Positions 2,806 to 37,237 of a stretch of 38,438 nt of DNA are shown here, piece after piece. The DNA lies in contig JAFGDB010000030.1 in NCBI GenBank assembly GCA_016932355.1, forward strand, positions 1 to 38,438, written 5' to 3'. Source of the stretch: Candidatus Iainarchaeum sp. GTDB lineage: Archaea; Iainarchaeota; Iainarchaeia; Iainarchaeales; GCA-2688035. Below the pieces are notes generated by a model that made no database searches, was not told where the DNA came from, and saw only the letters and a program-made list of their open reading frames with translations. Position 1 is the first letter of the stretch; every line of letters begins with the position of its first letter. Made by a program: the position numbers and the translations under genes.

Positions 2806-5800
2806 TTAGCTGCCGTATCCAATGCAGCTTTGGCCTGCGGTCAGGCCCTGTTCAAGCTGTTCAATGCTTGTGTATGGCCCTGCTGTTTCATAGAGCTTTT
2901 GCGGGTTCCACCAGAATGCTGTCCTTGTGCCAGAATTTGTAACGCACACATGGCCTGTTTCCACCAGGTCAAACACGTCCTGCAGTGATTCAGCCTTGTT
3001 TACTGAATCCCTGCTGTTGTGCAGCATTCCTGTTATTCCTGAAAGCTCAACTGTTTTTGCTATGTTGCTGTTTGGCGTGATAAACATCATGCCTGCCGGC
3101 TCCAGTGATTTCATGCTGTATATGCCTGCTGTTGGCGTGAAGAAAACAGTTTTCAGGTATGCTGTTCCCTTATAGTCTGCCTTTGGCCAGTCAACTGCGT
3201 ATGCAAACTCCCAGTTCTGCAGCCTGTCAGTGCCTGTTGCCTCCCTGTCTGGCTTGAAGTCAAATGCCTCAAATGCGGGAATTCCTGTAAAGTCAAGGCA
3301 CTGCCCTGCTCCTGTCCAGAAACCGAGGGTTGTTCCAGCCTCCACAGGCGCCAAAGTTTCCTGCAGCTGGTAGAATGCGGAGAATGGCTCATCTGTCTGG
3401 CTTGCGGGCATTTTCAGTACAAGAGGCGTTGCATAATTTGGGCTGAAAACCAGCTTTTTTCCGCTGCTGCCTGTTTCTGTGAAGTCCATTAAAAAGCCCC
3501 TGCTTGAAGCGCTTGTGTTTATCTTCTTCAAATCTGTTACAATGTCTGTTTCCAGGCTGGCTGCTGTAGTGCTTCCGCTTATCCTCCCTGTATTAATGCT
3601 TTCTCCCGGGTAAAAGCTTATCAGTATGTCCTCTTTCCTGTTCTCAAAGTTCAGGCCATAGCCAATCCTGCCGTTGAAGCTTTCCTTTCCAATATTTCCA
3701 TTGAATGGCAGGCTGTAAAATATTGAGTCAGGGTATGGGTTTTCAGCAAGGTATAGGTCCACAACTGTTTCAGAGTCAGGCAGGTCTGCATAGAAGAAAC
3801 GCCAGTCCTCGTTGTGGAAGTTTATTGCAAGCGTTGCATCATAGAGCCCTGCTGAGGAAAGGGTGTTCTGCCCGGAATACCTTGTCCTGAACCTCAAGGA
3901 ATCTGTGTCCTCAAACAGGTTTGCAAGCCTTTCGCTTCCGCTAATGAACCATTCAGGCGGGTCATAGAATGCACTGGTTGTGTAGAATTCCGCAAAGTCG
4001 CTCTGGAAGTCATTGGTGTAGCCGTCCTTCATGAGGTATGCCTTGAAGTGCAGAATTTCCTGCAGTGAGTCAAGGTCTGGAATTTCCTCTGTCCATGCAA
4101 TGCTTTCAAGGTTTGCTTCAACGTAGTATAGGAGTGCAGGCTTGTTGTCGTAAAGGACTGTTGACCTTGGAAGCCAGCAGCTTGCAATGTCTATTGGGGC
4201 AAAGCCCTGCAGGCCAAGCTCGTCAAGCGTTTCATTGAATTCTGCGCCGAGCTCTTCAAGGTTCTCTATTGCGGGGTTTTGCGGGCAGGGCAATGGCATA
4301 TTTTCCCTTAGGAATTCGTCCAGGGCATGCAGCCTTTTGTTGACCATTATGCTGAACTGGGTTGCATCGCAGTAAACTGCCTCATCATTCATGTAATCGC
4401 ATTCATTTATCCCAATGCCTCCGTTTTCTGCCCAGCTCCAGTTGAGCTTTACTTTTGGCAGGGCATCGTGGCCTGTCCTGCCCACAAGCGTTCCCATAAG
4501 GCATGACTCTTCATCTGGCACTGGCGGTATTTCAAGCACAATTTCCTTTGTGTTGAATTTCAGGTGTATTTTCTGCGAGTATGTTTCTGCCCTAAGGTCT
4601 GGCACCTTAAAAGGGCCAAATCCTGAGTTTCCCCTGCTTATCGTTGTGGGGTTTGAATGGTAGTGCCTTGTGCTTGGAATTCTGACTGTTGCGTAAACAG
4701 GCTTTCCTGGCTCAATTGCAGTGTTTGTGAATTTAATGCCTGCCTCCTGCTTGTCATATGTTCCGAAGACCTGTGCATCCTCTGTTTCCCAGGCTGCTGA
4801 AATCCCCTGCTTGTCAACTGTCAGGGGCTGGCTGTCCTCCTTGAGGTTAATTGCATAATCCATTAGCGTGGCGGTAACCCTCTGGTCGCATGGGTCTTCC
4901 CCGAATATGCCGCCGAGCAGGCCGCCTGCAATTGCTCCCAATGCTGCATACGTTCCAAGAATTCCGAAGAACTTGCCTTTGCTAAAGCCTGCTGCCTGGC
5001 CTGTTGCAGCCATTGTGCTGCCCAAACTGCCCATTGATGTTTTTGCTGTTCCCAGGGATGTTCTTGCATCTGCAAGGCCGTTAACTGCAGTGCCTGCTGC
5101 TCCCTGGGCGTCTGTAATTTTTACTCCTGATGCCTCTGCTGCCTGGATTGCGGTTGCAACGCTTGTCTGTGCCTTTGTTATTGCGGCAGATGCTGAATCC
5201 ACCTGCGGGGCGCAGCTTTCACCCTCCGCTGAACAGCACCCGTGTGCAGCACCCAGCTCCAACTCTGATGATTCCAGGCTGCTTTGCACTGTTGCCAGGC
5301 CTGCTGCCATTCCCTGGTTTTCTGCAAGGCTTTCACCCCAGCCTGTGTAGCTTTCGCCCAGGTCAGATGCTGATGTGTCAACCTCGCCAATTGCATTGTC
5401 AATGTCCTTGGTTGAATTGTAAGGGCCTGTGCTTACTGCAGTGGTTTCATTTGGCGAGGCTGTGTTCCTGCCTGTTATTGCATGCCCAAGGCCTGAGGCA
5501 ATCCTGCCAACGCCCCTTCCAATGCTTGCTATTGCCCTTCCTATTTTTGTCCAGAAAGTGCCGTTTGCCGTTGCCTCTATGTTTCCCATTTCGGTGTTTG
5601 CTGCTGCAACTGCTGCCTGTACGCCTGCCCCACACCCCCCTATTGCATTGGAGGCAGTAAGTGCTGCTTTTGTGTCAACTGAGGCTGCTTTTATTGCAAC
5701 ATTCCTTGTCTGGTCTGCTGCGAGCTGTGCTGCATCACCTGCAGTGCTTGCGCCTTGGACAAGGCCGTTTGCCCTTTGCACGCTGTCTACTGCGCCAGTC

Positions 5801-8800
5801 ATGTCAGCTGCCCTTGCAGCATTTATTGCCTGGGTTGTTTGGCTTGCGTGCTCTATTGCTGTCTTTGCCCCCAATAGTGCGGCTATTGCTGCTCCCACGC
5901 CTGCGCCTGCCAGGTCAAACATGCCTTCTTCCTCTGCTGTGCCCCAGTCGCATGCTGATGCATCAACTGAAACTGTTTCAGACAATGCGCTGTTTGTTAG
6001 CTTTGCCTCGTCGCTTGCCCCAATTCCCTTGATGTTTATCTCGTACTTGTCAAGGCTGAAGTCATTGCCTGTTTCAGGGTGCATCAATATGTCAAGGGTT
6101 TGCACCTCCCTGAAGGATGTTCCTGGAACCTTTGCTTCAACGTTTATGCCGTACATTCCAGGAATGCTCTGCCTCCTTACAAGCACTTCCCTTTCAGGGC
6201 TGTCCTTGTTCAGGGTAAAGCTTAGCGGCGTTACTGTGATGCCACCCTCTGCCCCGCCAGAGCAGTTTGGGTTTTGCCTGCACAGTTCAACCATTACATC
6301 TGTTTTCCCACAGTCGCTTGCGTCAACTGTGAATGTTGCGTCCTCCTGGCCTGCGCTTAATTCAACTATGTTCTCTGCGCCAATGTATTTTATGCACTGT
6401 TGCAGGTTAATTATTTTGATGTCTGCGCTTATCTTGCTAGGGCTTGCGCCTACAAATGCCATTCCAGAGCCTGTTGCTATCTCGCCGTCTATTTCCACTG
6501 TGAATTTTGCTGTCTCGCCCAGATGGCCCTGCTTTGGCGTGAGTGTTAGCATTGCATAGTATGTTGAGTCTGCCTGGGCTGTTTTGAACAGCCTTGTCCA
6601 CATTCCAGGTCTTAAAACCTCGCTGTTGCTGCTGCCTGTTTCCGCCTCAATCAATGTGAGCTCAACTGTTCCAAGGGCGTCAGACTGCCATTCAAGCTTT
6701 GCCTGCAGGCTGTCAAGCTCTACAAAGCTGCTTCCTGAAACGCAGTTGTTCTGCACTTCAAATTCTGTTGTTGCCGTGTTTTCAACTGTTGACCCTTCCC
6801 AGTTCTGCTTTGTGATGATTAAGCACGGCGAGTTGTCAGGCAGCTCGCCAATTACTGCCTTGACCTGCAGCGGAACTATCATGTCCCATAAAATGCTTCT
6901 TTCCTGGTTTGTTGCTGTTACAAGGTAATGGCCGTTTACTGTCTGGTTTGTAAAAAGGATTTCCCTTGCGTTTGCGCTGAGCTTTGTCTTGAACATTTCC
7001 CTTGCAATTGCGTTGCCTGGCCTTATTCCAATTCCAATGTGCTGCCTTGAATAGTTCTCCATTGTTGCCTGGTCAAGCAGCCCCTTAAAAGTTCCTGCCA
7101 GTGAAATGTTTTTTATTTCAAGGCCGATTCCTGTAACGTTTTCCACTTCAACTGAAAATGTCTGCTCTTTTGTGCCGCGTGTGTCAAGCACTGAATTTAT
7201 TTTGTTGGGGCTGAACCTCAAAACATTGGTGTCAACAAATACTGTTACTGGCGCAGCGTAGTATTCCGGTTTTTCTGCCTCTATAAGTATTTCGGTGTTT
7301 GGCTCCAGTTCCCCCAAATCAAATGTTGCCCTTCCAGGGCAGCATGTCATTTTTGTGTAGAATTCTGTTGGCCTGTCTGGGTGCGTTATTGTTGCCCTTA
7401 CAAGCGCATCCCTTACCCCAAGCCTTTGGCTTCCAACCTGCTCATCAACTGTAACCTGCAGCTCGTTTGCTATGTATGCTGCTATCACTTCCGGCTGGAC
7501 AGAGATCTGCATCTCCCTTTCGCTTTTCACCCAGGCGGTTATTGTTTTTGTGAAAACAGTCCTTGCATCAGCTATTACCTTTATTTCAATTGAGGCATTT
7601 CCCTGCTTGCTTGGCGTGAACTCAATTTCGCTGCTAATGCTCTTGCCCTTTGTAAAGCTCCCCAAGTCAATTGCCTCAATTTCTTTTGTGGAAACGCTTT
7701 CTGCTGTTATTTCCTGGGCTGAGGCATTTGTTATCTTGTAGCTGGTTATGGTTGAGCCAACCACCGTTATGTATAATTCACTGCTGTCGTACTGCCTTTC
7801 GCTGTTGTTTAGTATGTCAAATGTAAGTGTGTGGCTTGAGCCTGCCCTCATCTCATAAGGCTCATATATGTATAGGCCCATGTCCCCATCAATTATGCTT
7901 TCCCCGCTGTAGCAGAAGTCCTCCTGGCATTCGGATTCTGCGCCCTCCAAAAACTGCAGGTCAAATGTTTTTGCATAGAGTTCCTGCTTTTCCGCTGTTG
8001 ATTCAGCTATTCCAAGCTGCGAATCATACGGCGCCCTGATATAATCTCCTGCCTCATCAACAGCCCACGCCCTGTAGTGCATTGGCAGCCTTGTGTAGGG
8101 TGCTATCTGGCTCTTTACCCTTATCTCAAACCCAAAATAATAATTTCCTGTTTCCAGGCCTGCCCATTCCACGCTTGCCCATTTTGCATCACCTGCTGTC
8201 AAATTCTCTGAATCAGTCTCATAGCCTAAAGGCGCAGTAAAAGATGTCCCTTTCTGCACTGCCCTTACATTGCCTGCAATAACATCCTTTATCACAAGCG
8301 CATCGTTTACAAGCAGCCTTTCATCTCCCACCCTGTAGTGGAAGCCGCCCTGGCCAAAATTGCCTGCTTCAGGAACGCTCAGCTTGAATTTAACCAAATA
8401 CCTGCTGCCTGCCCTCAGCACCTGCACCTGCTTTCCTGCCAGGTCATATAGGCCTTCAAACTGTATTTGGGGCTCGCCCATGATAAGCCTTGGCTCCATC
8501 ACTGCCCTGAATTCAATTGGCTGAGAGGGCCAGAGCTGCTTTGGCATTGTATGCACTGCCATGTAATTTTCATGCCTTACAACAGCGTAAACCCTCTTAT
8601 CTGCCTTGAGCTCGTACTGCCCTGTTCCCTGGGGCAATGGAATTTTTCCCAGGCTTTCGCCTCCCTCTCCAAAAAACTCTGCCTCTGCCTCGTTCACTGG
8701 CCGCTTGTCCTCATCAAGCGCTGTTACCCTCACAAGGCTTTTTCCAATGAACAGGTTTACTGTAAAGTATGTTGCCTCCCTTATGTCAATTTCCTTGCCC

Positions 8801-10389: not shown

Positions 10390-13300
10390 CTAGCTTGCCT
10401 TTATGCATTCCTTCTCTGCAAGGCTTCTCTGCTGGCTGAGCTCCTCAAGCACTGCTTTTGGGTTCCAGAAAAACTGGTTGCTTATCCTGCTGTCCGCGCC
10501 AATAATGCAGACCTTGTTTTCCCTAACCAGTTCAAACACGTCCTCTATTGAGTCAATTGTGCTTGTCCCAAAGCTGTTGTACTCCATTCCTGGAACGCCG
10601 TTGAGTGCAACCTGGCTTCCGCTGCTGTCTGCAGTAATCAGGCTCATGTCATCGCTGTAGGTTGTTTTCTTCATTGTGCTGCTTTTTCCCTGCGGCGTGA
10701 ACACAACTGTCTGGAGGAACACGCTTCCCTGCCTTATCGGGTTGCACCATTCTATTCCATAATCTGTTATGTCTGTTGCCACAGCGCATGACAGGTTGCC
10801 TGTTATGCCGCCGTGCATGTCCCAGGTGTCCTGCCAGGCCTCTGTAACAGGGCTGCCTGTGAAGTCAACGCAGTTTGGCCCAATGCCTGACCATGCCAGC
10901 ATCCTGTTGAATGCTGTCTGGGGCGTATTGTCAACCTCTATTGAATAAAACGCATATGCATGCTCTGTTTTCTCATAGTCAACCTGCATCATTACAGGCG
11001 TTGCATAGCTTGGGCTTAGCATAATGTTTGTTGCTGCTCCTTGCTTTTGCACGTCAAGCAGTATCCCTTTTCTCTCGAGGTTAAGCCTCCTGAAGCTGTC
11101 GCTGCTCCCTGCATCAATCCAGCCATCGAGCACGGGCGTGCTGTTTGCTATATTTGTTGTTGCTATGGGCTGGAAAATGCTGTTGTTTATTTTTATTGTT
11201 TGTTCGCTTGTCTGCCTGAAGTTAATTCCGTATCCCTGCCTTCCGTTTTCGCTGTCTATGCCGACAAGGCCGTCAAACGGCAGGTAGTAAAATGGGCTGT
11301 CGGGCTCTGGTGCGGCCAGCTCAACCAGCTCAACGCTGACTGTTGCATCAGGCTCAGTGCCTGAAAACAGCTGCCAGTCCTGGTTGTCAAACTCAATATT
11401 CAATGTTACTGAGTACTTTCCTGCATCCAGTGGGGCGTGCGGTGCCATGCTGTAGTCAAACTTAAAGCTTTCCCTGTCAGAAAACAGCTTGTGCAGCCCT
11501 GTACTCTCCTCCAGGTAATAGTCCGGGCAGTCAAAGAAGCTTCTCTGCTTGCAGAACATGTCAAAGTCTTCCCTGAAGTCATTGGTGTAAGCGTCTTTTA
11601 TGAGGTATGCGTTGAACTTGATTGTGTCAAGTATTTGTTCCCTTTCTGAATTGCTCCATGCTGCGTTTCCTGCTGCCTCTGTTGCCTCAATGAAGAGCGG
11701 CAGCCTCTTTGTGTTGAACGGCTCGCATTCTACAACGCCGCCTGTTCCAACGTAAAGCTGGACTTCAATTGAGTCATTGCCTGTGTCAGAGTTCTCGCAG
11801 TTGCTGCAAAGCTCTGAGGTAATGCTTGCCTGTACAGTGTAGAGGCCGTCTCCCAACTGTGTGAATTCGCAGTTTGCAACCTTTCTGCTAAGCACGCTCA
11901 TTTCCTTTGTGCAGCTTTTTGCAAGGCTTCCTGTGCCTGCATTCCTCAGGTTTACACTGATTGAAACTGGTATTGGCTCGCTGTTGTTGCTTTCAATTGT
12001 CATCACAATGTTTGCATCGCTCTGCCCTGCCTTGTTTGCCTGGATCTTTGTTATTGCAATGTCATAAGCTGTCCCTTTGATGGGCTGCTCCTTGGCTGCT
12101 GCTTCGCTTGCCGGGCTTGGGCAGTCAAAGGGCTTGTATTTGTCAATGAATTCCTGCAGCCTGTGCAGCTTCTTCAGGGCAACAATGCTGAACTGCGTGG
12201 CATCGCAGTAAATGTAATCAGGGTTGCCCTCAACGCAGCTGTCCTCGCTTATTGAACCCCAGTCCCAGCTGAATGAAACTTTTGGAACTGCGCTCGGCCC
12301 TGTTGTTCCCACAATATTCCCAAGCGTGCAGTTTGGTATTGGCTTGCTTATCCTTTCAATGAGCAGCGGGTCAAACGCGTTGAACTGCAGCCTGAAGCTT
12401 TCCTTATGGTCCTTTCTTTCCTTTACCTCAAGGTCCGGCGTTTCCTTCTCATCAAGGTCATACTCTGTCTTGTATTCCCTTCTCTCATTGTCAACCTTGA
12501 GTATCCTGAACAGCGGTGTTGCTGGGTCTGGCTGCACAACGCTTTCCTTGTTCAAAAACCAGAGCTTTCTGGTTTCAATGCTCAGCTGCCTGTCCTCCTG
12601 CTTTGGTTCTGTGCTTACCTCTGGCTTTGCAGGCTCAAACACCACAATGTCCTCTGACTTGGTTTCAACAAGGGCATTGTCCTCAATTGATGCCCCTGGC
12701 ATGTACAGTTCGGCATCCCTGTAAACAACATCTCTCTCTATTTTTGTAAAGCTGAAGCTGCCTTCGTCCTGCTGGTTGTATGCAATAATGGTTCCTGCAA
12801 GGAATCCCTGCAGGCCCCAGCCAAGGAAGCTCGGCTTTCCCAGGATTGACTGGCCAAGGCCGCTTATCAGGCCGTTTCCAAGCATTCCTGTCAGGCCACT
12901 GCCGCCCCCCCCTAAAAGCGCAAGCCCTGCTGCGCTTCCCAGAACAATTTCTTCCTGTTCTGTCCTTGCTGTTGGGTAGCTGCTTCCTGATACAATTGTT
13001 GCCTTTTCTGTTGCGCCAAACCCCAGAATGCCGCCTGTTTTCTCAACCCTGTAGGCATTGCCTTGGGCATCGTAAACCAAATTTTCAGAATCAATTGGCT
13101 TGAAGTATGTTCTTCCGCCGATCTCTACAGGCACGCCTTTCCTGCCTCCTGCATCTGCAACTGTCCTGCCCTGCTGGAACTGCTCAAATGTAACAGCGTT
13201 TCCTGCAGCGGCAATATTGCCTGCTGCCTGCGGTGCTGGCTGCTGCATTCCGCTTCCAAGCTGGCCCATTGCCCCTGTTGCCAGCCCATAGAGCAGGCCT

Positions 13301-28447: not shown

Positions 28448-31400
28448 TTACTCCTCTTCCCTGAATTGCATCCAGGCTGACCTTATCTCCCTAATCTTGC
28501 TAAGGTATGTGCTCGGGCTTTTTGTGCTTGTGAAGCTTGTTAAGTAGTTTTCCCCCTTTTCAAGCGAGTTCCTCAGCCTTTGCGCAGCGCACCCTATTAT
28601 TGCATTTACCTCTTTCTCGCTGTTTTTCTGCTTCCACCATTCCTTCTCTATTCCGCAGCCCTTTATGTTTTCAGGCTCATAGAGCAGCACAGCCATCAGC
28701 ATTTCCTCGTCAATGGCTATGCCTTCCTTTTCAGCCCTGTAGTAATCTGCAAAGTACCTTATAACCATCTGGTTTTCGTTGTAGAGGATTGCCTGCTCTT
28801 GGCTTACCTTGTCATTTGGGTATGGCTTTAGCTTTCCAAGGAAACCGGCATCCTCTTTCCCATAATTCTTGCAGTCAGTGTTCCAGTTGCTTTCCTTGCT
28901 GCTTTCAAAGGCTTTTGCCATCTCCCCATACCGCCCTTCCCCAAGAGCCATTATGTTAACGCTTGTCCTGCCCAAGCTGTCTTTGGAAATGGTTACCTTG
29001 TGCGGCTGGTTCTTCACAAGCTCAAGCTCTTTTACAACAGGCTTCTGCGCAATTACATTGCCCTGCTCGTCAACAACATCTGTCATCATGCTTGTTGTAA
29101 ACCTTGCCTGCTCCTGCACGGCATCAGGCCCAATTCCCTCCCAGTACGCCAAATACAGGGCCATGCCTGCAGCGTTTGCAACCAGCCCTGAGAGAACGCC
29201 CTTTGCAAGGCCCTTGCCAAAGTTTGCAAGCTTCTTTGAGAACTTCGGGCTTTCAACATATTCCTTCATGATTTTTGATGCATCGCTTCCAAACTTGCCC
29301 TGCAGCTTTGTTACAACCTCTGCGTTAACCCTTTTCTGCAGCGCCTTGTAAACAGCCTTGTTGTTTGCTGCGTCTGCAGCAAAGTCTGCCATTGAATTCC
29401 TGACAAGGTCTTCAACGCTTGACTGCATCTGCCCAAGGAACCTTGCCTTTTCAGCTTCAGCCATCTTGTCAACCAAGTCATTTATGCTGAATTTCCTGAG
29501 TGCGTTCTTTGGAATTCCTGTTGTGCCTGACAGCTTGGTAATTGCATCATTGTAAATGTCCATCATTGCCTTTTGGGCTGCTGGCTTTGTATAGCCTGTT
29601 TTGGTAACGCTTTTCTTGATTGCGTCCTCAAAATTGCTTCTGCCCCCAAATTCGTCCCATATGCTGTCCATCATGTCTCGGTCAAGCGAATCAAAGGATG
29701 AAATAATTTTCCTTGAAACGCTTTCCTGTACCTCCTTTCCACTGAGCGTTCCAAGCGAGTCCATCTGCATGCTTGCAAATGCCTCGTCCCCTATCTTTCT
29801 TGCGTCAAATATTGTGTTTGTCCTGTTCCTTATTGCATTATCCAGCAGCGAGCCTTTTGCAATTGTCCCTGTGGCAATTCCCTCACCCAGCTGCTTGTTA
29901 AACTCATCCTGCATGTCTGCAAATGCCTTGTCAATAACTGCGTTTGCCACATCCTTCAGCGGCTTGCCCTTCAGGCTTGGCTGCAGTGTTGTAAGGTGCC
30001 AGCTGCTTGGCCTTACCCCTGGCGGGCCTTTTACAAAAAGGTTTTCTGCTGCGGCATCCTTTGCCTTTTCAACGAGCTTTTTCTGCAAGTCATCTGCAAC
30101 TGTTTTAGGCAAGCCTGCCATCTTCTTTGTTATGAACTGTTTTGCATACTCATCCCAAAGGCCTGAGTTTACAAGCGTTCTTGCGCTTGACAATGTAAGT
30201 GTCTTGCTTGTTGCGCTAAGCCCCTCTATCACTGCCTTTGTTCCTGAGAATGTGGCTGCCCCCTTGAGCAGTGTTCCAAACTGTGAGTTTGCCTCATCCT
30301 CTGAGATGTATTCCCCTGGCGTTTCGCCTGCATCCAAATCAACAATGTCTTGCCCTCCAAACACTTTGCTTACTCCATTCAGCACTATTCCAATGGCTTT
30401 TCCAACCGGCCCTAAGGCTGTTTTGACTGCATTGATTGCAAACTCCTTTGCTGCCTTTGTTGTTTCTGTAAGGTCAAGTATTGCTGGCATTGCAGGAAGC
30501 ACGCAGTCAAATGCAACGCTTCCCCATGGCGAGAAGAATGCAATCGGGGCGCATGCCCCCATGTACAACCCCAGTGATGCAATCCTGTCTGGCCTTGCCT
30601 CCTTTTCATAGCTGCTCAGGCCGCTTACTGGTTCTCCAACTGCTGCTGGCCCCATTTCCTCAATTTCCCTCTGCAAAGCGTAAAGCCTTTCCAGCTTTGG
30701 GAATGAGAGTGTGTCAGGGCTTCCCTGCCAGCCTGGCATTGCATAGTATATTTCCTCCTTGCCTTTCTCCATTGCCTTTTCCCTTTCAGTAATCTTCTTT
30801 ACAAGCTCAAGCGGGTGGATTCCGCAGACCTCTATTGCAATTGCATGCGCCTTCTCCGTTTTTCTCCCATCATAAATGCTTCCATAGGCGGTAAGCTCAA
30901 TGCTCTTCACTGATGCAGGGGCAAGCGCAAACTCGTTGCTTCCCTTTACGCACATTACAAACTCTTCCCCATAAAGCTTGTTTTGGGTTGAGCCTTCTGT
31001 GCTTCCAGCTTCCTCTGTGCTTGCAGGCTGACTAGGTTCTGCACTTCCTGGCTGTGCAGGCTCTGGCTTAAGCTCTTTGAGTGAAACCTTTTTGCTTTTC
31101 TCCCCTTTCTGGCCTGCTGTCCTGTTCTCCTCTTTGAGCAGTGGCTCTGCGTCAATGCCCTTCTTCTCATAGTCTGCCTTTTTGTATATTGCAACTGATT
31201 CAATGCCTGCCCTTTCCTGCTTTGCAAGGAAGCTGGTTGAAACCTGCACTGATTCCTTTGCATCGCTCTCCACGCTGAATTCAGCGCAGTTGACCTGGTT
31301 GTTTATCCTTATGCTTTCATCGCCCTTTACTTGGAATGTGGGGTAGAGCTTCCTGAAGTTCTGCCCGCTTTTCATTACAATGTACTGCCCGTCCTCGCTT

Positions 31401-34400
31401 ATGCAGTCCTCTTCCCCAAATTTGTGGATTATGAATGCACCCATTGCGTCTGCTATTCCCTCTGCCATCTCCTTGTTGCTTGGCTCAAACTGGGTTGGCG
31501 CATATGCCTTTACTGTCTTTTCTGAGTCTGGGTTGCCCTCCTTTTCAAGCTCTATTAGGAGAAGGCCGCTTTTTGTGTCTCCCTTTAAAATTGCAAGCGC
31601 ATTGCTGTTTTCGCTTTTTGTTGATGTCCTGCCGTCTGTTTTTCCAAACAGTTCCTGTGCAAGCAGCTTTGGCAGCTCTCCAAGCTCTTGGCTGCTTCCC
31701 TGCACATATCCAGGCCACGCGCTTCCTGAAAGCCCATATCCCTCGTCAACAGGCAGGAAGTTAATAACATTTTGCACATAGTTCCAGCACTGGCCTGTGT
31801 CTGCCCTGTCCTGCTCAATGGTTATTGTCAGGGCAAAGTTCCTGCCTTCCTCTGAGATTATTTCACCATTTGAAACCTGCATTGCCCCGTTTATTTCAAC
31901 ATAGTATTTTCCGCATCCCTTGAATGGCTTTTCAAGGTAGATATTTCCAAATGTGAAGCCTGCACCGCTTATGTCCTCCAGGTCAATTGCGTTTTGCTTT
32001 ACGTCATAGCCCTTGAGCTCTGTCTTGCTGAATTCCCTCAGCTCCTTAATAAGTGTTTCATAGTCCATGAAGTCAAGCTGCAGGAAAACAGGCAGTATTT
32101 CCCTCTTTACATTCATTTCGTCAAAGCTGCAGTGCCTCCTCTCCCTTGCTGCGCACCCTCCAAACTCTGAGGCCTGGTATTTTGCCTTTGCTGCCTTGTC
32201 CTTTGCAAGCGTTACCATGTCATCTGCTTTCCTGACAATGTATTGCGCAAGCTGCTTTGCATCGCAGTATCCATCAGAGCAGTTGCTGCTCAGCAGCGGG
32301 AAGCTCACCCTTTTTGTGTCCTCGCTGTCGCAGACCTTTATGCTTACCTCTTCTGTTGCCTTTCCCTCTGCTGCTGCTACAAGCCTGCCGAGCTTTACTG
32401 TTACTGAAAGCTCATCTGATTCAATTATCTTGTTCTGGTTTACGAGAAGGGCCAGTGCCTTTATTTTTGCCGCCCTGTCCATTTCCTGGCTTCCAACCAT
32501 CCTTAGGCTGAATGTGCTTTCCTGGCTTGGCTGCAGCACGATGTTTGCCGGGAACAGCATGAATGCATTGCTTCCAACTGCGCCTGGCTTTGTTGTGCCT
32601 GTAACCCTCAAGGGTTCGCCGCACTCGTTCTTGAGCTTTACCTGCCTTTCAATTATTGCAGTTGCCTTCTGGCTTGAGAAAACCATGCTTTCAATTGCCT
32701 CTGCCTTCAGGCACTGCGTTCCTGTGTAATTTACTCCAACCTCTGTCCTGCCCAAATCAGGGTAATACCTTCCGTTTATCACGCCTCCAAAGTATACATA
32801 GCCCTGTGCTGGCTCTGTCAGGGCTTCTGACTTGCTTGTTTCAGCGTAAACATGCCTTGTTGGGCTCAGCGCCTGTCCTGGCATCAGGTTTATTGAGCTT
32901 ATTGCTGTGGGCTTTATCTGCGCGCTTATTCCATATCTCCTGTAAGCTGTGTCCTCTATTGCTGCCCTGAATGCTGTTATTGGCGCAAACCCAGTGTTCA
33001 TCAGCTGGATTGGGACCTGGCCATATGCCCTTTCCTCTGCCGCTGCCCTTGCAAGCCACATTGTCAGGGTTGGCGGATAGCTTAAATTGCTGCTGGGGTT
33101 CCAGAGCTCTACTGAAAGCTTTATTGTTTTGTTGAGCTGGTCTGATTCAAGCTCTATGCTGAAGTACCTTCTTTCCTGCATTGCGTAAAGCCTGTCAATT
33201 GTGTTGCTTGCAGTGATTTTCAGCTTTTCAGTTGATTCCTTTTCAATCCTCAATGGTTCAACTGCAACGCTTAAATTTGGGTCTTGCTCCTGGGGCTTTA
33301 CCTTTGCGTTGAGCAAAAGCGAAGCCTCACAGTTGTTTTCAACCTCAATTTCCTGGGTTGCGCTGCTTCCTGCTGTCCCAATAAGCCTGATGACAACCTC
33401 CTCTGTGTCAAATTCCAGGCAGTCTGAGTCAAGCTGCTTGTTGTAGTTTGCCACAAGCCTTGCCGTTGTTTTTGTGGGAAAGCTTCCTGCAGCCATGCCC
33501 TTTATTACAAGGTCTGCCTCGCCGTGAAGGCTTTCCTGGCTTTCATCCGTTGTGCTGACTGAAACAGTTATGTTTGCGCTTCCGCTTCCCTTTCCTGCAA
33601 TTGTGCTCGGCATTTCAACTTTTACAGAGAATTCCTCTGGAAATCCTGAATCCTTCTCAAGCTCGTATGCAAGCCCTGTTATTTCCTGTTCCCCTGTATT
33701 GGTTATTGCTGCTGCCGCGCTTTTGTACTTCTCACCTTTCCCTATGTTAATCTCTATCGGGCTTTCAACTGTGAGAATGCCGTCCTTTGCAATTGTTATT
33801 TCAAGTTCCCCTGTTTTGTAGCCTGGGGCGCTTGCCTCTGCTGTGTAAAGCCCTGGCTCCAGGCTGTTTTTGAAAAGGTATTCGCCGTTCAGGCCCCTTC
33901 TGCTTGCGCCATTGCCTACAACAGTTAACGCGATTTTCCCGCTGCTGTCCTTAAGGCGGATTGTTGCGTTCTCTATATCCTGGCCGTCCTCACTGTCCAT
34001 AACGCTTATTGTAAAGTCCTCTCCAATGCCTATTTCCTCTGGCTTAACTCTCACAAGCATTGTCTTGTTTCGCTCTATCTGGAAGCTTGCTTCCTCATTG
34101 AGGACAATTGCGCCTGAAACAGCCTGCACCTTGATTGATGCTGTTCCCTCTTCAAACGGCTTAAAGTATGCCCTTACCTTCCTGGCCTCTGTTCCAACAG
34201 AAAGGCTGCTTATTGTAATGCCTGTCTGCTGGCCTGATTCAATGAATTCCAGTGGGTTTTCGCTTTCCTGCTGTGCTAATGTAGTTTCTCCAAGTTCGAG
34301 GAAGCCCTGCCCTGAAAGGTCTGTCTGCGCTGGAAGCTGCTCATCTAATATTGGTTCCCCGAGAAAGTCGTCAACCTCATAGCCTGTGAAGTAAATTAGG

Positions 34401-36910
34401 GGGTTTGCTTTGTCAGTGTCTATTTTCAGCGTTGCTGTCCTTTCGGCATCGGCACTGAGCTCTATCTGCAGCGCATAGAGCTCTTCGGTTACCGCCCTAA
34501 ACTCTGCCTTTTCAACGAACAGCCCATTGGGCATTACAAACAGGTAGTTTGCGCAGAGCCCTTCCTCACAGACTGCCTCGCTTGAAAAAACGCTGATTTC
34601 CTCATCATGGGTTTCAGAGTAAAGCCCTGTTTTTGAGGAAACATACCTCTCGTTTCCAAGCTCTGGGTCTGCTGGATGCCTGTAATATTGCTGTGCAATC
34701 TGGCTCCATGCCCTGTAGTGCAGCTCAATGCTTTCCTCAGTTATTGAGTTTCTTGCCTGCACCTTTACGCTCACAACAGTTGTGTTCTCCGGGCTTTCAA
34801 AGTATAGCTCAAGCAGCTTGTTGAGCTGGCCTGTGCTTCCCTTGTTGAGCATGTCTGCTGCCTCATTTCCAGGCAGCGGGAATGGCTGGTAGCTTTTCCC
34901 ATAAAAGTATTTTCCAGTAACTGCATCAAAGCCTGCAATTCCTGCCTGCTGCGAGTCTACAAAGGCTGTGTCATCGCTCCCAAGCCTTACATGGATGCCG
35001 CCTTTTTCAAGCCCTTCAGGCCAGTTTACCTCAAACTTGAGCCAGTAATACTTTCCAGGGGTTATGCCTTCAACCTCAACCCAGTCATCGTTGTATGCCC
35101 CTAAAAAATTTATTTCGGGGGCGAGTGCGTCAACCTCTTCCCCAAGCGTTACCCTTACAGTGTCCTGGCCCTCCACGTTCACCTGCTGGCTGAATGTTTT
35201 GCCCTCGCTTGTTTCAACCCAGAGGTTTACCTCTTTGTTGCCCCTTGAGTCAAAGTAAATGCTGCCATTGCTTATGTTTCCGTCAAAGAGAAGCGCGCCG
35301 CTTGCGCTTTCAATTTCTGCTGTTCCTGTTACAGGGTTTCCCTCGCTGTCAAATATCTGAAGCTCAACAATGTTCACAGGCTTTTCCATCACTATTATGA
35401 GCTGGTTTTCCTTGTTTGCCTCAATCAGCTTTTCTGCCTTGCCCTCCTGCAGGTCCTTTTTTGCCTCAACAACCACTGTTGAGCTGATTGCAGCCTTTAT
35501 TGAGGCATACCCGCTTATGTCTGTTTTAAGCGATGGAATTCCAAGAGGGAGCTCTTTTCCTTCAACCTTTTCAGAGAAGTAGAGGTCTGCGTTGTTTGCT
35601 GCAGCATTGTATGAGTCAAAAACGCTTATTCCAAGGTATGAGCTGTTTGTCTGGTCTGTTGCAGTAAGCCTTATGTCAACGCTCTCTGTTTCAGCAATGT
35701 TCACGAGTTCCCTTGCCGGCAGGTATCCTGCCCTGTAGCCTGTAACATAATACTTTTCTGGTGCAAGGTTTTCAAACAGCGCCATGCCCGCAAACGCTGT
35801 TTCTGTCGCCTCAAGGAAGTTGCCGTTGCTGTCAAAAAGCTGCACTGCTGCATCGCTCAATGGAACATCCGCTGAGTAAACCGTTACCTCAAGCTGGTTT
35901 CCGCCAACTTCCAAATTTACAATCCACTGCTCTTCATCAAGCCTGAGTGTCCTGCTTTCAGCCCTTTCCAGGCTGTCATACCTTAAAAAGCCGTCTTTCT
36001 GCACAATCAGCCTTACACTTGTTCCCTTTGTTATGCTGAACACTGCCTCGCTTCCCTCAAGCACCCTTTCCTCAAGCAAAGTGTCTGTTGTCCTGTCCAT
36101 TGCAATTGCTTTTGCGCCCTCAACTGCCTCGCCAAACTCGTCCTCTATTGAAACAATGAGTGCTGTTTCGCCTGCAAGCGAAATGCTGTCTGGTTCCAAT
36201 TCAATTTCTGCAAGCTCGCCCTCTTTAAAGCTCTTTGCCAGCGTAACCCTTTCATAGCCGTCAGCGCTCACTGAAACAGTTACATCAATGCCCTCTGGAA
36301 TGCCTGTAAAGCTTGCCTTGCCCTCGCTGTTTGTGATTGCGCTCATTGTAATGTCCTGCCATTCAATGCCGACAAGCGCTTCCTTTACTGCATCTCCAGT
36401 AATGCTGTCCACAAGCTGCAGCTCTGCCTGGATCTGCCTGATCTGCCTCTGCATCTGCATCAGGAGCGAGGTTTCATCCCTTGCCACAGTTACTGCCTTT
36501 TCCGAAATGTCAAAGCCCTGCTTTGAGGCTGAAACCACAAGCTCTGCCCCGATCGGTATAGCCTGCAAGTGTATGGTTTCGCCGCTTGCAACTGTTTTCG
36601 GGCCTGTTATCACCTGCCCTGACTGGTTTTTCACTGTTACCTGCACGCCTGAGACAGTCTGGCCAAACTGGTCCTGGAAGCTTACAGTAATGCCAGGGTT
36701 TATTGTGTTTCCGATGAAGACAAGCCCAAACACAAGGGCCAGGACAAGCACAATCAGTGCAACTGTTATTGGGAATGCAGGCAGGCCCTTTTCCTCAAGA
36801 AAGTCGTTGTAGCTGTAAACAGGAATGCCTTTTGCATCCAGGAAGTCGAGCAGTGCATAGTATTTCTCTTCAAGCGCAGTGTATATCCCTGACAGCTTTT
36901 CCCCAAACAT
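28448..36910 (-). CDS. Giant signal-anchored surface protein, paralog 4 (about 2820 aa) with a divergent helical C-terminal module
   Basis: Uninterrupted ORF. The track starts at TTG 36916 (MKMFGEK...), but the first ATG at 36910 (MFGEKLSGIYTALEEKYYALLDFLDAKG...LPAF plus TM) is the more likely start. It has a CarboxypepD_reg-like repeat stalk, a central module ending HYRAWS and LYSET, and a GYCDAKQLAQYIV motif. The C-terminal about 900 aa are unlike paralogs 1-3. Confidence 0.95.
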   Translation of the reverse strand: MFGEKLSGIYTALEEKYYALLDFLDAKGIPVYSYNDFLEEKGLPAFPITVALIVLVLALVFGLVFIGNTINPGITVSFQDQFGQTVSGVQVTVKNQSGQVITGPKTVASGETIHLQAIPIGAELVVSASKQGFDISEKAVTVARDETSLLMQMQRQIRQIQAELQLVDSITGDAVKEALVGIEWQDITMSAITNSEGKASFTGIPEGIDVTVSVSADGYERVTLAKSFKEGELAEIELEPDSISLAGETALIVSIEDEFGEAVEGAKAIAMDRTTDTLLEERVLEGSEAVFSITKGTSVRLIVQKDGFLRYDSLERAESRTLRLDEEQWIVNLEVGGNQLEVTVYSADVPLSDAAVQLFDSNGNFLEATETAFAGMALFENLAPEKYYVTGYRAGYLPARELVNIAETESVDIRLTATDQTNSSYLGISVFDSYNAAANNADLYFSEKVEGKELPLGIPSLKTDISGYASIKAAISSTVVVEAKKDLQEGKAEKLIEANKENQLIIVMEKPVNIVELQIFDSEGNPVTGTAEIESASGALLFDGNISNGSIYFDSRGNKEVNLWVETSEGKTFSQQVNVEGQDTVRVTLGEEVDALAPEINFLGAYNDDWVEVEGITPGKYYWLKFEVNWPEGLEKGGIHVRLGSDDTAFVDSQQAGIAGFDAVTGKYFYGKSYQPFPLPGNEAADMLNKGSTGQLNKLLELYFESPENTTVVSVKVQARNSITEESIELHYRAWSQIAQQYYRHPADPELGNERYVSSKTGLYSETHDEEISVFSSEAVCEEGLCANYLFVMPNGLFVEKAEFRAVTEELYALQIELSADAERTATLKIDTDKANPLIYFTGYEVDDFLGEPILDEQLPAQTDLSGQGFLELGETTLAQQESENPLEFIESGQQTGITISSLSVGTEARKVRAYFKPFEEGTASIKVQAVSGAIVLNEEASFQIERNKTMLVRVKPEEIGIGEDFTISVMDSEDGQDIENATIRLKDSSGKIALTVVGNGASRRGLNGEYLFKNSLEPGLYTAEASAPGYKTGELEITIAKDGILTVESPIEINIGKGEKYKSAAAAITNTGEQEITGLAYELEKDSGFPEEFSVKVEMPSTIAGKGSGSANITVSVSTTDESQESLHGEADLVIKGMAAGSFPTKTTARLVANYNKQLDSDCLEFDTEEVVIRLIGTAGSSATQEIEVENNCEASLLLNAKVKPQEQDPNLSVAVEPLRIEKESTEKLKITASNTIDRLYAMQERRYFSIELESDQLNKTIKLSVELWNPSSNLSYPPTLTMWLARAAAEERAYGQVPIQLMNTGFAPITAFRAAIEDTAYRRYGISAQIKPTAISSINLMPGQALSPTRHVYAETSKSEALTEPAQGYVYFGGVINGRYYPDLGRTEVGVNYTGTQCLKAEAIESMVFSSQKATAIIERQVKLKNECGEPLRVTGTTKPGAVGSNAFMLFPANIVLQPSQESTFSLRMVGSQEMDRAAKIKALALLVNQNKIIESDELSVTVKLGRLVAAAEGKATEEVSIKVCDSEDTKRVSFPLLSSNCSDGYCDAKQLAQYIVRKADDMVTLAKDKAAKAKYQASEFGGCAARERRHCSFDEMNVKREILPVFLQLDFMDYETLIKELREFSKTELKGYDVKQNAIDLEDISGAGFTFGNIYLEKPFKGCGKYYVEINGAMQVSNGEIISEEGRNFALTITIEQDRADTGQCWNYVQNVINFLPVDEGYGLSGSAWPGYVQGSSQELGELPKLLAQELFGKTDGRTSTKSENSNALAILKGDTKSGLLLIELEKEGNPDSEKTVKAYAPTQFEPSNKEMAEGIADAMGAFIIHKFGEEDCISEDGQYIVMKSGQNFRKLYPTFQVKGDESIRINNQVNCAEFSVESDAKESVQVSTSFLAKQERAGIESVAIYKKADYEKKGIDAEPLLKEENRTAGQKGEKSKKVSLKELKPEPAQPGSAEPSQPASTEEAGSTEGSTQNKLYGEEFVMCVKGSNEFALAPASVKSIELTAYGSIYDGRKTEKAHAIAIEVCGIHPLELVKKITEREKAMEKGKEEIYYAMPGWQGSPDTLSFPKLERLYALQREIEEMGPAAVGEPVSGLSSYEKEARPDRIASLGLYMGACAPIAFFSPWGSVAFDCVLPAMPAILDLTETTKAAKEFAINAVKTALGPVGKAIGIVLNGVSKVFGGQDIVDLDAGETPGEYISEDEANSQFGTLLKGAATFSGTKAVIEGLSATSKTLTLSSARTLVNSGLWDEYAKQFITKKMAGLPKTVADDLQKKLVEKAKDAAAENLFVKGPPGVRPSSWHLTTLQPSLKGKPLKDVANAVIDKAFADMQDEFNKQLGEGIATGTIAKGSLLDNAIRNRTNTIFDARKIGDEAFASMQMDSLGTLSGKEVQESVSRKIISSFDSLDRDMMDSIWDEFGGRSNFEDAIKKSVTKTGYTKPAAQKAMMDIYNDAITKLSGTTGIPKNALRKFSINDLVDKMAEAEKARFLGQMQSSVEDLVRNSMADFAADAANNKAVYKALQKRVNAEVVTKLQGKFGSDASKIMKEYVESPKFSKKLANFGKGLAKGVLSGLVANAAGMALYLAYWEGIGPDAVQEQARFTTSMMTDVVDEQGNVIAQKPVVKELELVKNQPHKVTISKDSLGRTSVNIMALGEGRYGEMAKAFESSKESNWNTDCKNYGKEDAGFLGKLKPYPNDKVSQEQAILYNENQMVIRYFADYYRAEKEGIAIDEEMLMAVLLYEPENIKGCGIEKEWWKQKNSEKEVNAIIGCAAQRLRNSLEKGENYLTSFTSTKSPSTYLSKIREIRSAWMQFREEE

Positions 36911-37237
36911 TTTCAAAGACCACTTTTCAAGGCTTTCTTTTTCGGCTTTTTTTTTATTCCTGATTTATTCTTTCTTTCCCAAGGCTTTCCTTTGGTCAAA
37001 GAAAGGCTTTTCACTTTATTACTCTGCCTAATTAATTTCTATGGCATCTTCTATATTAACCTTTATATCAAGGCATTTTTTTCCCTTCTGGAAAAACCAC
37101 AATAAAAAAAGGGCAAACTAATATATTAAAGTAATTATTGCAGCGCCCCAGCTTCAAACAGGTATTTTTGGGTTTCTATTTCATTGATAGAAACGATTAT
37201 TAAGAACTTTAATTATGTTTATAGCGGTGAATCTTCT

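What the first reader, a model, noticed from the sequence alone, without database searches (positions are those of the whole stretch)
2806..36916. Tandem array of four giant paralogous signal-anchored proteins occupying about 81% of the window
Four uninterrupted minus-strand ORFs of 7,488, 7,206, 7,965 and 8,469 nt lie head to tail. They are colinear paralogs. Each has a conserved N-terminal cytoplasmic motif plus one TM helix, then 5 or more repeats of about 85-95 aa. The repeats fit the CarboxypepD_reg-like pattern ([VI]x[VI]xVxDxxGxP[VI]xxAxVxL ... TDxxGxAxFxxxxxGxYxxxxxxxGY). A conserved central module follows (KWA[NS][IV][EM]W ... [FHW]YR[AS]W ... LYA[KN]), then further beta-rich segments, a paralog-specific insert, and a shared C-terminal module in paralogs 1-3. 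I saw no catalytic motifs (no HExxH, no obvious nucleotide-binding loops) and cannot name a family. NxS/T sequons are frequent, as expected for archaeal surface proteins. Giant surface proteins are proposed host-contact factors in episymbiotic archaea (the SPEARE protein of Nanohaloarchaeum antarcticus is one example). Four diverged copies in tandem would fit adhesion or antigenic diversification. That functional reading is inference.
Basis: partly seen in the sequence, partly recalled or inferred. Interest (0 to 1): 0.85.

Follow-up and report, generated by a model that had tools for sequence, protein, structure and literature searches.

The report
Conserved giant surface-protein cluster of Iainarchaeota
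Four real, very large membrane-anchored surface proteins sit in a fixed-order gene cluster found in at least 71 species genomes, most labelled Iainarchaeota (small DPANN archaea), so they look like distinct parts of one uncharacterised cell-surface structure rather than variable copies of an adhesin.

Summary
Four uninterrupted minus-strand ORFs (2495, 2401, 2654 and 2822 aa) are colinear paralogs at 24-28% identity. Each has a conserved 45-aa cytoplasmic leader, one TM helix and about 14 beta-sandwich domains. Paralogs 1-3 share a C-terminal module of about 700 aa.

The interpretation needs correcting. The genes belong to a cluster of about 36 kb with the order P4, pilin-like 573-aa protein, P3, P2, P1, then 4-5 small polytopic membrane proteins. 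That order recurs in 71 species-level genomes, most labelled Candidatus Iainarchaeum. Two are complete chromosomes, in which the parts held keep the order. Each paralog has its own orthologs at its own position, with 45 of 45 concordant in the 15 complete loci. This argues against antigenic diversification and favours four non-redundant subunits of one envelope apparatus.

No catalytic domain occurs in the window. One P4 ortholog ends in NlpC/P60, Amidase_3 and Glucosaminidase domains, which hints that the distal tip meets bacterial cell walls.

Function is still inferred, either cell-cell contact or an S-layer-like coat. A similar cluster was mentioned in one sentence for the Diapherotrite Ca. 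Forterrea in 2018. The finding is therefore a dissected member of a noticed but uncharacterised kind. NxS/T sequons are not enriched.

The parts
28448..36916 (-). P4, giant protein 4 (2822 aa from TTG). The likely true start is the ATG at 36910, because orthologs begin MF/MI-xEKL. It has the leader, one TM helix and a beta-sandwich region colinear with P1-P3 to about aa 1200. A 'YCDAKQ' trace lies at aa 1551. The C-terminal ~800-1000 aa is lineage-variable.
28451..30919 (-). Variable C-terminal 'payload' region of P4 (aa ~2000-2822). It is helical with hydrophobic segments. The last 260 aa form a domain with conserved W, C and E residues and no known family. In ortholog P0044 this region is replaced by NlpC/P60 + Amidase_3 + Glucosaminidase.
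26054..27775 (-). M573, a 573-aa Cys-rich protein with a prepilin-like (class III) N-terminus. Most orthologs whose N-terminus is held in the locus begin [KR][GA]-F-[NT]-L-F-T-A-L. It is a conserved cluster member between P4 and P3.
   Evidence: weak ComGF minor-pilin N-terminal match
17887..25851 (-). P3, giant protein 3 (2654 aa). It has the leader, TM helix, beta-sandwich chain with a Tyr/Gly/Ser-rich insert, and the C-terminal module with a long helical insert.
10390..17595 (-). P2, giant protein 2 (2401 aa). It has the leader, TM helix, about 14 beta-sandwich domains, a Gly-rich hydrophobic linker and the C-terminal module.
17398..17595 (-). Example (P2 aa 1-66) of the conserved cytoplasmic leader YxxLEDKWYxxLDxxDxK.P.xxxxDxxDxxxPSF followed by the TM helix. 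All four paralog families share it. It is the best-conserved segment of the proteins.
13261..15828 (-). P2 aa 590-1445, the central region. The AlphaFold2 model has mean pLDDT 81 and shows an all-beta chain of about 8 beta-sandwich domains.
10393..12528 (-). P2 aa 1690-2401, the C-terminal module shared by P1-P3. It has the invariant YCDATQFSI motif, conserved Cys residues and a CARDB-like insert in P2. The fold is otherwise unmatched and the second half is poorly modelled.
2806..10293 (-). P1, giant protein 1 (2495 aa). It resembles P2, with two G/A-rich hydrophobic segments (aa 1458-1480 and 1775-1796) flanking a low-complexity Ala/Gly/Ser/Thr region before the C-terminal module.
2194..2583 (-). 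S1, a 129-aa polytopic membrane protein. It is a conserved cluster member and is related to S2 and S3.
1856..2194 (-). S2, a 112-aa polytopic membrane protein and conserved cluster member.
1489..1749 (-). S3, an 86-aa polytopic membrane protein. It is the most conserved protein of the cluster.
1047..1376 (-). S4, a 109-aa polytopic membrane protein with a Gly-rich tail and conserved cluster member.
573..1019 (-). S5, a 148-aa protein with two hydrophobic segments. It is detected in only about a dozen of the loci.
21..560 (+). CC179, a 179-aa coiled-coil protein with a weak DUF7310 match. It is convergent with the cluster and is the conserved downstream neighbour in most loci. Whether it belongs to the system is unknown.

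Best explanation
The window carries almost the whole of a conserved gene cluster of about 36 kb, found in genomes mostly labelled Iainarchaeota (formerly Diapherotrites, DPANN). The cluster encodes one multi-subunit cell-surface apparatus.

Shown:
- Four ancient, non-redundant paralog families of giant type-II (N-in, C-out) membrane proteins occur in fixed order.
- They sit together with a prepilin-like 573-aa protein and four to five small polytopic membrane proteins.
- Each giant has a strongly conserved 45-aa cytoplasmic leader, one TM helix and an ectodomain of about 14 beta-sandwich domains.
- Three of them end in a shared Cys-containing module of about 700 aa with no detectable relative of known structure.
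- P4 instead ends in a lineage-variable region.

Inferred mechanism:
- The common leader and TM helix dock all four giants onto a membrane platform formed by the small S1-S4 proteins. This bundles them into a hetero-oligomeric fibre or canopy that projects tens of nanometres from the cell.
- The distal C-terminal modules mediate contact with other cells or surfaces.
- The variable P4 tip carries payloads. In at least one lineage these are three peptidoglycan hydrolases, which implies contact with bacterial cell walls.

The cluster is a core structural system, not a set of interchangeable or antigenically varying adhesins.
For: - Gene order and breadth. The order P4, M573, P3, P2, P1, S1, S2, S3, S4, (S5), with a convergent coiled-coil gene, is seen or partly seen in 73 loci from 71 assemblies. 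These are almost all Candidatus Iainarchaeum. The complete chromosomes CP010424.1 (AR10) and CP064981.1 keep the order in the parts held.
- Positional orthology. In 15 loci holding the complete interval, 45 of 45 giants have 10 of 10 top hits at the same position.
- Whole-length conservation. Giants are 30-67% identical to orthologs. S1-S4 are more conserved still, at 41-85%.
- Leader. It is the most conserved segment and is shared by all four families.
- Topology. The positive-inside charge bias supports N-in orientation.
- Structure. The central 856 aa model confidently (pLDDT 81) as a chain of beta-sandwich domains. Foldseek matches only multi-Ig/MG chains.
- C-terminal module. The profile finds 803 clusters at 50% identity. 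All 150 listed hits carry it at their C-terminal end, most in proteins over 2,000 aa and the rest shorter, probably partial.
- Small proteins. S1-S3 are mutually related (hhalign 97% and 90%).
- M573. Most orthologs whose N-terminus is held start [KR][GA]F[NT]LFTAL.
- P4 tip. P4 ortholog P0044 sits at the P4 position of its cluster and carries NlpC/P60, Amidase_3 (E 1.6e-19) and Glucosaminidase.
- P4 variability. The P4 C-terminal ~800-1000 aa is conserved only among close relatives.
- Genome share. About 36 kb is about 3% of the 1.05-1.24 Mb complete Iainarchaeota chromosomes.
Against: - No experiment or expression data bears on any member.
- No physical interaction between the giants, or with S1-S5, is shown. 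Co-occurrence is the only link.
- The peptidoglycan-hydrolase payload is seen in only 1 of about 26 P4 orthologs. The window's own P4 tail has no recognisable enzyme.
- The cluster is present in genomes predicted to be free-living (AR10, Ia. andersonii). That fits a housekeeping envelope role at least as well as host contact.
- The number of giants varies from 3 to 5 among loci.
- The C-terminal module model is poor (pLDDT 57), so its function is open.
- Some P1/P2 family members have mid-protein hydrophobic segments whose membrane status is unresolved.
Confidence: 0.6

Rival explanations
1. The cluster encodes an S-layer-like cell envelope. The four giants, anchored by their N-terminal TM helix, and in P1/P2 perhaps by a second hydrophobic hairpin, form the proteinaceous coat of Iainarchaeota, with no specific role in host contact.
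For: - The cluster is conserved across the genomes examined and takes a large share of the genome.
- It is present in lineages predicted to be free-living.
- Ig-like beta-sandwich chains are the commonest building block of archaeal S-layer proteins, and a broad S-layer survey names no Iainarchaeota SLP among those it reports (10.1101/2024.05.28.596244).
- Hydrophobic hairpins between ectodomain and C-terminal module in the P1 family would let the chain return to its own membrane as an arch.
- The proteins evolve at a moderate, not hypervariable, rate.
Against: - Known archaeal S-layers use one or two proteins with a cleaved signal peptide and a C-terminal or lipid anchor. These are four 250-300 kDa proteins with an uncleaved-looking N-terminal anchor and a conserved cytoplasmic leader.
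- There is no match to any S-layer family.
- There is no sequon enrichment.
- The peptidoglycan-hydrolase tip in P0044 is not expected of a lattice protein.
Confidence: 0.25
2. The four genes are tandemly duplicated adhesins maintained for adhesion breadth or antigenic/phase diversification.
For: The genes are tandem paralogs with a shared architecture. Copy number varies between 3 and 5 in some genomes, with extra P1-like copies. P4 has a variable C-terminus.
Against: - The paralogs are only 24-28% identical, and each has position-specific orthologs across the phylum. The duplications are therefore ancient and each copy is individually retained.
- There are no DNA repeats that could drive recombination between copies.
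- Orthologs are conserved over their whole length.
Confidence: 0.05
3. The giants are a scaffold for capturing or degrading polymers, in the manner of a cellulosome. They act as extracellular scaffolds that bind polysaccharide, peptidoglycan debris or mineral surfaces for nutrient scavenging, and are not a cell-cell device.
For: CarboxypepD_reg, Big_1 and CARDB-like domains are common in carbohydrate-active and surface-binding proteins. The hydrolase cassette in P0044 could serve to scavenge murein fragments.
Against: No carbohydrate-binding or catalytic family was detected in the window proteins or in four other long orthologs. No cohesin/dockerin-like pairing modules were detected.
Confidence: 0.1

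Closest known systems
The 42-kb region with five >1,800-aa membrane-anchored proteins in the Diapherotrite Candidatus Forterrea multitransposorum (Probst & Banfield 2018, PMC5905446)
   Same: Same phylum. Several giant membrane-anchored proteins are encoded side by side and take up 3-5% of a tiny genome. The authors speculated on the same cell-cell interaction role. Some loci here also hold five giants.
   Different: The paper gives one sentence and a cartoon. It offers no family definition, no domain anatomy, no accessory genes and no comparison across the phylum.
Giant1-5 cluster of Apilactobacillus kunkeei (Pedersen et al. 2026, PMC12863079)
   Same: Five consecutive genes encode 3,000-8,000-aa extracellular proteins and occupy about 6% of a 1.5-Mb genome. 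The structures are elongated and the positional homologs are conserved among strains.
   Different: That system is bacterial. Giant1-4 have an N-terminal beta-solenoid like serine-rich-repeat adhesins, and the cluster evolves by recombination within a narrow clade. The archaeal proteins are beta-sandwich chains with an N-terminal signal anchor and are conserved across a whole phylum. The resemblance is in architecture only.
SPEARE protein of Nanohaloarchaeum antarcticus
   Same: It is a giant DPANN surface protein proposed to mediate host contact.
   Different: From memory, SPEARE is a single protein of over 5,000 aa with serine-protease, adhesion and restriction-endonuclease domains. No such domains were found in the window proteins.
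Archaeal S-layer stalk/canopy proteins built of Ig-like domains, such as Sulfolobus SlaA/SlaB and the Haloferax S-layer glycoprotein
   Same: They are membrane-anchored chains of beta-sandwich domains that project from the archaeal membrane.
   Different: Their anchors are C-terminal or lipid (PGF-CTERM) and they use one or two proteins. The four giants carry no PGF motif or C-terminal TM helix, and no S-layer family matched.
Alpha-2-macroglobulin/complement MG-domain proteins and hydin-type ASH-domain chains (best Foldseek matches)
   Same: They contain long strings of MG/Ig-like beta-sandwich domains. There are weak bMG3/MG4 Pfam matches.
   Different: The TM-scores are only 0.1-0.2. There is no thioester CGEQ motif and no bait or TED region. 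The resemblance is at the level of the repeated domain fold.

Membership tests
CarboxypepD_reg (PF13620) domain-containing proteins | At least one match above Pfam's gathering score (32.3 bits). | tested here: met
   P1 scores 54 bits, P2 71, P3 111 and P4 87, with 2-5 stretches each. This names only the repeat, not the protein family.
Iainarchaeota giant-protein cluster (defined here) | Gene order P4, prepilin-like protein, P3, P2, P1, S1-S4. | tested here: met
   The window has this order. The same order is seen in the 73 genome loci and in L001 and L075-L079.
Iainarchaeota giant-protein cluster (defined here) | N-terminal leader YxxLE[DE]K[WY]Y...D...P[SA]F followed by a TM helix in every giant. 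| tested here: met
   All four window proteins have it, as do nearly all full-length orthologs with an intact N-terminus.
Iainarchaeota giant-protein cluster (defined here) | C-terminal module with the invariant [YF]CDA[TV]Q[FA]SI motif. | tested here: met
   P1 (aa 1975), P2 (1797) and P3 (1966) have it. P4 has only a CDAKQ trace at aa 1551, with hhalign probability 12%.
Archaeal S-layer proteins | Match to a known SLP domain family, or a C-terminal anchor (TM helix or PGF-CTERM). | tested here: not met
   No SLP family appears in Pfam or NCBIfam. The anchor is N-terminal, and there is no PGF motif or C-terminal hydrophobic segment.
Archaeal S-layer proteins | Forms a 2-D lattice and is among the most abundant cell proteins. 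| not testable with these tools
   This needs cryo-ET or proteomics.
SPEARE-type DPANN giant proteins | Serine protease plus restriction-endonuclease domains in one giant protein (definition recalled from memory). | tested here: not met
   No protease or nuclease family was found at E <= 0.1.
Alpha-2-macroglobulin / thioester-containing proteins | Thioester CGEQ motif and TED domain. | tested here: not met
   No C[GL]E[QN] motif is present. Only MG-like repeat matches below the gathering score were found.
Type IV pilin-like (class III signal peptide) proteins, for M573 only | Short basic N-terminus, [KR][GA] followed by a hydrophobic helix starting with F. | tested here: met
   The window sequence is MHLNQRA/FNLFTALVSFLLIILAV. 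The same motif is present in most of the 29 orthologs, the exceptions being N-terminally truncated ORFs. There is a weak ComGF N-terminal match, E 0.037.
Type IV pilin-like (class III signal peptide) proteins, for M573 only | Processing by a prepilin peptidase and assembly by a FlaI/PilB-type ATPase and platform. | not tested
   No such genes lie in the window or in the 10-kb flanks examined. The rest of the genome was not available.
Peptidoglycan hydrolases (NlpC/P60, Amidase_3, Glucosaminidase) | Pfam match in the window's P4. | tested here: not met
   These domains are present only in ortholog P0044. The window P4 tail has no match in Pfam, the PDB profile search or PHROGs.

The most novel reading that the evidence does not exclude
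The cluster encodes a new kind of archaeal contact-dependent machine. Four giant stalk proteins are recruited through a dedicated cytoplasmic leader onto a platform of small membrane proteins. They bridge the gap to a bacterial partner. Distal hydrophobic hairpins (P1/P2) and exchangeable P4 payloads, such as peptidoglycan hydrolases, breach the partner's envelope. This would imply that Iainarchaeota, often considered free-living, are epibionts or predators of bacteria.
Probability: 0.15. Interest if true: 0.85.

Novelty: new member of a known kind. Interest (0 to 1): 0.6.

Why it matters
Iainarchaeota have genomes of about 1 Mb. No representative is cultured to my knowledge, and whether they are free-living or symbiotic is disputed. 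A cluster that takes about 3% of the genome and recurs in fixed order in at least 71 species genomes is probably central to their cell biology.

This work defines four orthologous giant families, a shared cytoplasmic leader, co-conserved small membrane proteins and a variable P4 tip. Together these give concrete handles:
- HMMs to profile the cluster across DPANN.
- Targets for metaproteomics and cryo-ET.
- A testable link to bacterial cell walls through the P0044 hydrolase cassette.

The leader and the central and C-terminal modules match no curated family searched here (Pfam, NCBIfam, PHROGs) and would merit family definitions.

Tried and rejected
- Sequence searches of P1 and P4 against the PDB found nothing beyond Ig-like repeats.
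- NCBIfam and PHROGs scans of the giants, their tails, M573 and (NCBIfam only) S1-S5 found nothing meaningful.
- A profile of the P4 C-terminal 260 aa against the PDB found nothing. I considered NlpC/P60-like or lysozyme-like readings of its 'DC.NY' and 'E..MAVLL.QPE' motifs. I rejected them because there is no conserved His and no profile match.
- The structure model of the C-terminal module is mediocre (pLDDT 57). Foldseek against the PDB and BFVD matched only the CARDB/Ig insert.
- A search with the leader alignment, meant to find other architectures carrying it as a test of the sorting-signal idea, returned only short contig-end fragments.
- An archaeosortase (EpsH-like) gene sits just upstream of P4 in L075. 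It suggested a sorting link, but upstream context differs in other genomes and the giants lack C-terminal sorting signals. I rejected it as a core component.
- Pfam scans of four unusually long relatives (P0049, P0066, P0120, P0134) found no enzymes.
- G....GK[ST] matches lie in confidently modelled beta-sandwich or equivalent regions. They are not Walker A motifs.
- Literature searches found no description of this locus apart from the Forterrea sentence.
Full report
**Observation.** The window holds four uninterrupted minus-strand ORFs of 2495 (P1, 2806-10293), 2401 (P2, 10390-17595), 2654 (P3, 17887-25851) and 2822 codons (P4, 28448-36916). Stop-free frames of this length cannot arise by chance.

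BLASTP shows they are colinear paralogs. P1/P2 are 28% identical over aa 1-1468 and 32% over the last ~420 aa. P3 behaves similarly. P4 matches over about the first 800 aa. Profile-profile comparison extends P4 colinearity to about aa 1200 and gives a weak trace of the C-terminal 'YCDAxQ' motif at aa 1551.

CarboxypepD_reg is above Pfam's gathering score in all four, together with overlapping Ig-like families (Big_1, SpaA, SdrD_B, bMG3/MG4). HExxH is absent.

The N-flank of the single strong TM helix has 5-8 Lys/Arg against 0-1 behind it, so the orientation is N-in, C-out. NxS/T sequons are not enriched over shuffles. At the DNA level the paralogs share nothing longer than 99 nt, so collapse or expansion during assembly is not an issue.

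The giants are not alone.
- Between P4 and P3 lies a 573-aa Cys-rich protein (M573, 26054-27775). Its N-terminus, MHLNQRA/FNLFTALVSF..., is prepilin-like.
- Downstream of P1, on the same strand, lie five small hydrophobic proteins: S1 to S5, of 129, 112, 86, 109 and 148 aa.
- A convergent coiled-coil gene (21-560) closes the region. A PAC2 proteasome-chaperone gene lies beyond P4.
- The 672-bp gap between P4 and M573 holds a MazF/PemK toxin (E 5e-12) and an RHH-like antitoxin. In five other genomes this gap is only about 60-145 bp, so the toxin-antitoxin pair is a local insertion.

**Where it comes from and how conserved it is.** P2 and P4 have dozens of full-length homologs, all unnamed proteins of uncultured archaea. 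Scoring the P2 hits against the four window proteins shows separate orthologs for P1, P2 and P3.

A scan of one genome per GTDB species, using the invariant peptide [YF]CDA[TV]Q[FA]SI, gave 147 confirmed matches. The best 80 fall in 73 loci from 71 assemblies. Almost all are labelled Candidatus Iainarchaeum. They include the complete chromosomes of AR10 (CP010424.1, 1.24 Mb) and CP064981.1 (1.05 Mb), and Ia. andersonii. A few are labelled otherwise (Falkowbacteria, Chloroflexi, Thaumarchaeota, Micrarchaeota); I take these to be bin labels rather than true hosts, which I did not check.

Translating all loci and classifying ORFs against the window proteins gives one order everywhere: P4, M573, P3, P2, P1, S1, S2, S3, S4, (S5), then the coiled-coil gene on the other strand. 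Fifteen loci hold the whole M573-to-S1 interval with three intact giants. In these, all 45 giants have 10 of 10 best hits in other genomes at the same position.

Identities to the window run from 30-36% (AR10) to 64-67% (closest relatives) for the giants. S1-S4 run from 41-55% to 69-85%. In one genome where PAC2 is also nearby, PAC2 is 72% identical against 54-63% for P4, M573 and P3. The giants therefore evolve somewhat faster than a housekeeping protein but are conserved end to end.

Some genomes have an extra P1-like gene or lack P1, so there are 3 to 5 giants. Genes upstream of P4 are not conserved: an archaeosortase-like gene in one genome, restriction-modification and helicase genes in another, and PAC2 here.

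**Anatomy.** The most conserved stretch of the giants is the first ~45 residues. The motif is YxxLE[DE]K[WY]YxxLDxxDxK.[IV]P[VI]Y..xDxx[DE]....P[SA]F, and it runs straight into the TM helix. All four families share it.

The ectodomain begins with 5-6 repeats of about 85 aa of the CarboxypepD_reg type.

An AlphaFold2 model of P2 aa 590-1445, built on 12 sequences, has mean pLDDT 81. It is an all-beta string of about eight beta-sandwich domains. Foldseek against the PDB returns only other multi-Ig chains: hydin/CPC1, PrgB Ig domains, and alpha-2-macroglobulin and complement. TM-scores are 0.1-0.2. There is no thioester motif.

A variable low-complexity linker follows. In the P1 family it is flanked by two hydrophobic G/A-rich segments. 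These are strongly hydrophobic in orthologs P0019 and P0021, weaker in P2 and absent in P3.

The C-terminal module of about 700 aa in P1-P3 has many invariant Cys, Trp and Gly residues. It models only moderately (pLDDT 57, first 400 aa acceptable). Foldseek matches only its CARDB-like insert in the PDB and BFVD.

An exhaustive profile search over 1.84 billion representative proteins finds 803 clusters, 523 of them at E <= 1e-30. All 150 listed hits carry the module at their C-terminal end, most in proteins over 2,000 aa and the rest shorter, probably partial.

S1, S2 and S3 are related to one another (hhalign 97% and 90%). None of the small proteins matches a curated family. Most M573 orthologs whose N-terminus is held begin [KR][GA]F[NT]LFTAL. 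There is a weak ComGF minor-pilin N-terminal match.

**The P4 tail.** P4 orthologs conserve the first ~1800 aa. The last 800-1000 aa are shared only among close relatives. One ortholog, P0044 (3374 aa), sits at the P4 position of its own cluster. It ends in NlpC/P60 (aa 2869-2943), Amidase_3 (2999-3171, full-length match, E 1.6e-19) and Glucosaminidase (3232-3315). These are three peptidoglycan hydrolases.

The window's P4 instead ends in a helical region, a hydrophobic segment and a domain of about 230 aa with conserved Trp, Cys and Glu residues. That domain has no detectable relative.

**Interpretation.** The evidence shows a vertically inherited, fixed-order cluster recurring across Iainarchaeota-labelled genomes. 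Each giant is individually retained. This is the signature of non-redundant subunits of one structure, not of copies kept for antigenic variation.

The best-supported mechanism is partly inferred. A common cytoplasmic leader and TM helix tether all four giants to a shared membrane partner. The co-conserved S1-S4 proteins are the obvious candidates for that partner. The chain of about 14 domains would project tens of nanometres if extended; this is my estimate from domain count, not a measurement. The C-terminal modules and the variable P4 tip would form the distal, interacting end.

The hydrolase cassette in P0044 shows that this end is extracellular. In at least one lineage it is aimed at bacterial murein.

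Whether the structure is mainly a cell-cell contact device or an S-layer-like coat cannot be decided here. Its presence in lineages predicted to be free-living, and the lack of any named Iainarchaeota S-layer protein in a broad survey, keep the coat model alive. The N-terminal anchor, the four-protein composition and the hydrolase tip argue against a classical S-layer.

**Comparison with what is known.** No curated family covers the leader, the central region or the C-terminal module.

The literature held here has one pertinent statement. Probst & Banfield (PMC5905446) reported, for the Diapherotrite Ca. [quoted passage not shown] That is very probably the same kind of cluster, but I could not test homology.

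A bacterial analogue in architecture is the Giant1-5 cluster of Apilactobacillus kunkeei (PMC12863079). SPEARE-type proteins differ in domain content.

The finding is therefore a member of a kind already noticed, namely tandem giant surface proteins in small-genome DPANN. It has never been dissected. The family structure, leader, accessory genes, breadth across species genomes and P4 payload appear to be new descriptions.

**Verdict.** The feature is real, unusual in scale and biologically important for a poorly known phylum. Its function remains inferred and its existence is not wholly new. Interest 0.6.

Noticed in passing
window 27910-28388 (-): A type II toxin-antitoxin pair lies in the P4-M573 intergenic gap. 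It consists of a MazF/PemK-like toxin (27910-28167, Pfam E 5e-12) and an RHH/CopG-like antitoxin (28179-28388, weak match). In five other genomes this gap is only about 60-145 bp, so the pair is a window-specific insertion within the cluster.
   Followed up: partly
window 36910-36916 (-): The P4 ORF is listed from a TTG at 36916. Orthologs start MF/MI-xEKL, so the ATG two codons downstream (36910) is the likelier start, giving 2820 aa.
   Followed up: yes
window 37184-37996 (+): A PAC2-family proteasome assembly chaperone gene (Pfam E 3e-46) lies divergent from P4. A 72%-identical copy lies near P4 in L078 but not in other genomes, so the context upstream of the cluster is not conserved.
   Followed up: partly
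L075 9186-9857 (+): An exosortase/archaeosortase-like gene (PF09721, 223 aa) and seven unannotated genes lie directly upstream of the P4 ortholog on the same strand in one relative. This was not seen in the other genomes examined, and the giants have no C-terminal sorting signal.
   Followed up: partly
window P1 aa 1458-1480 and 1775-1796 (about 4906-5920, -); orthologs P0019 aa 1498-1516 and P0021 aa 1519-1537: Two hydrophobic G/A-rich segments flank a low-complexity Ala/Gly/Ser/Thr stretch between the ectodomain and the C-terminal module. They are strongly hydrophobic in some P1 orthologs. They may form a second membrane hairpin, and their meaning is unresolved.
   Followed up: partly
window P3 aa ~1290-1360 (about 21770-21980, -): A Tyr/Gly/Ser-rich low-complexity insert (GYGLYGSSAGYGYSPYTQNGLGGYASSYGTYGSYGSGYG...) sits inside the beta-sandwich region of P3. 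It is also present in the P3 orthologs P0023 and P0024.
   Followed up: no
loci L056, L060, L061, L065, L069, L071, L073, L074 versus L010, L020, L030, L039, L055: The number of giants varies. Several genomes carry one or two extra P1-like genes. In others the P2-like gene is followed directly by S1, with no P1. S1-S4 are present in both cases.
   Followed up: partly
window 21-560 (+): A coiled-coil protein with a weak DUF7310 match and a highly conserved C-terminal 'MEKILETDRKIL' is the convergent downstream neighbour of the cluster in most loci. Its function, and any link to the cluster, are unknown.
   Followed up: partly
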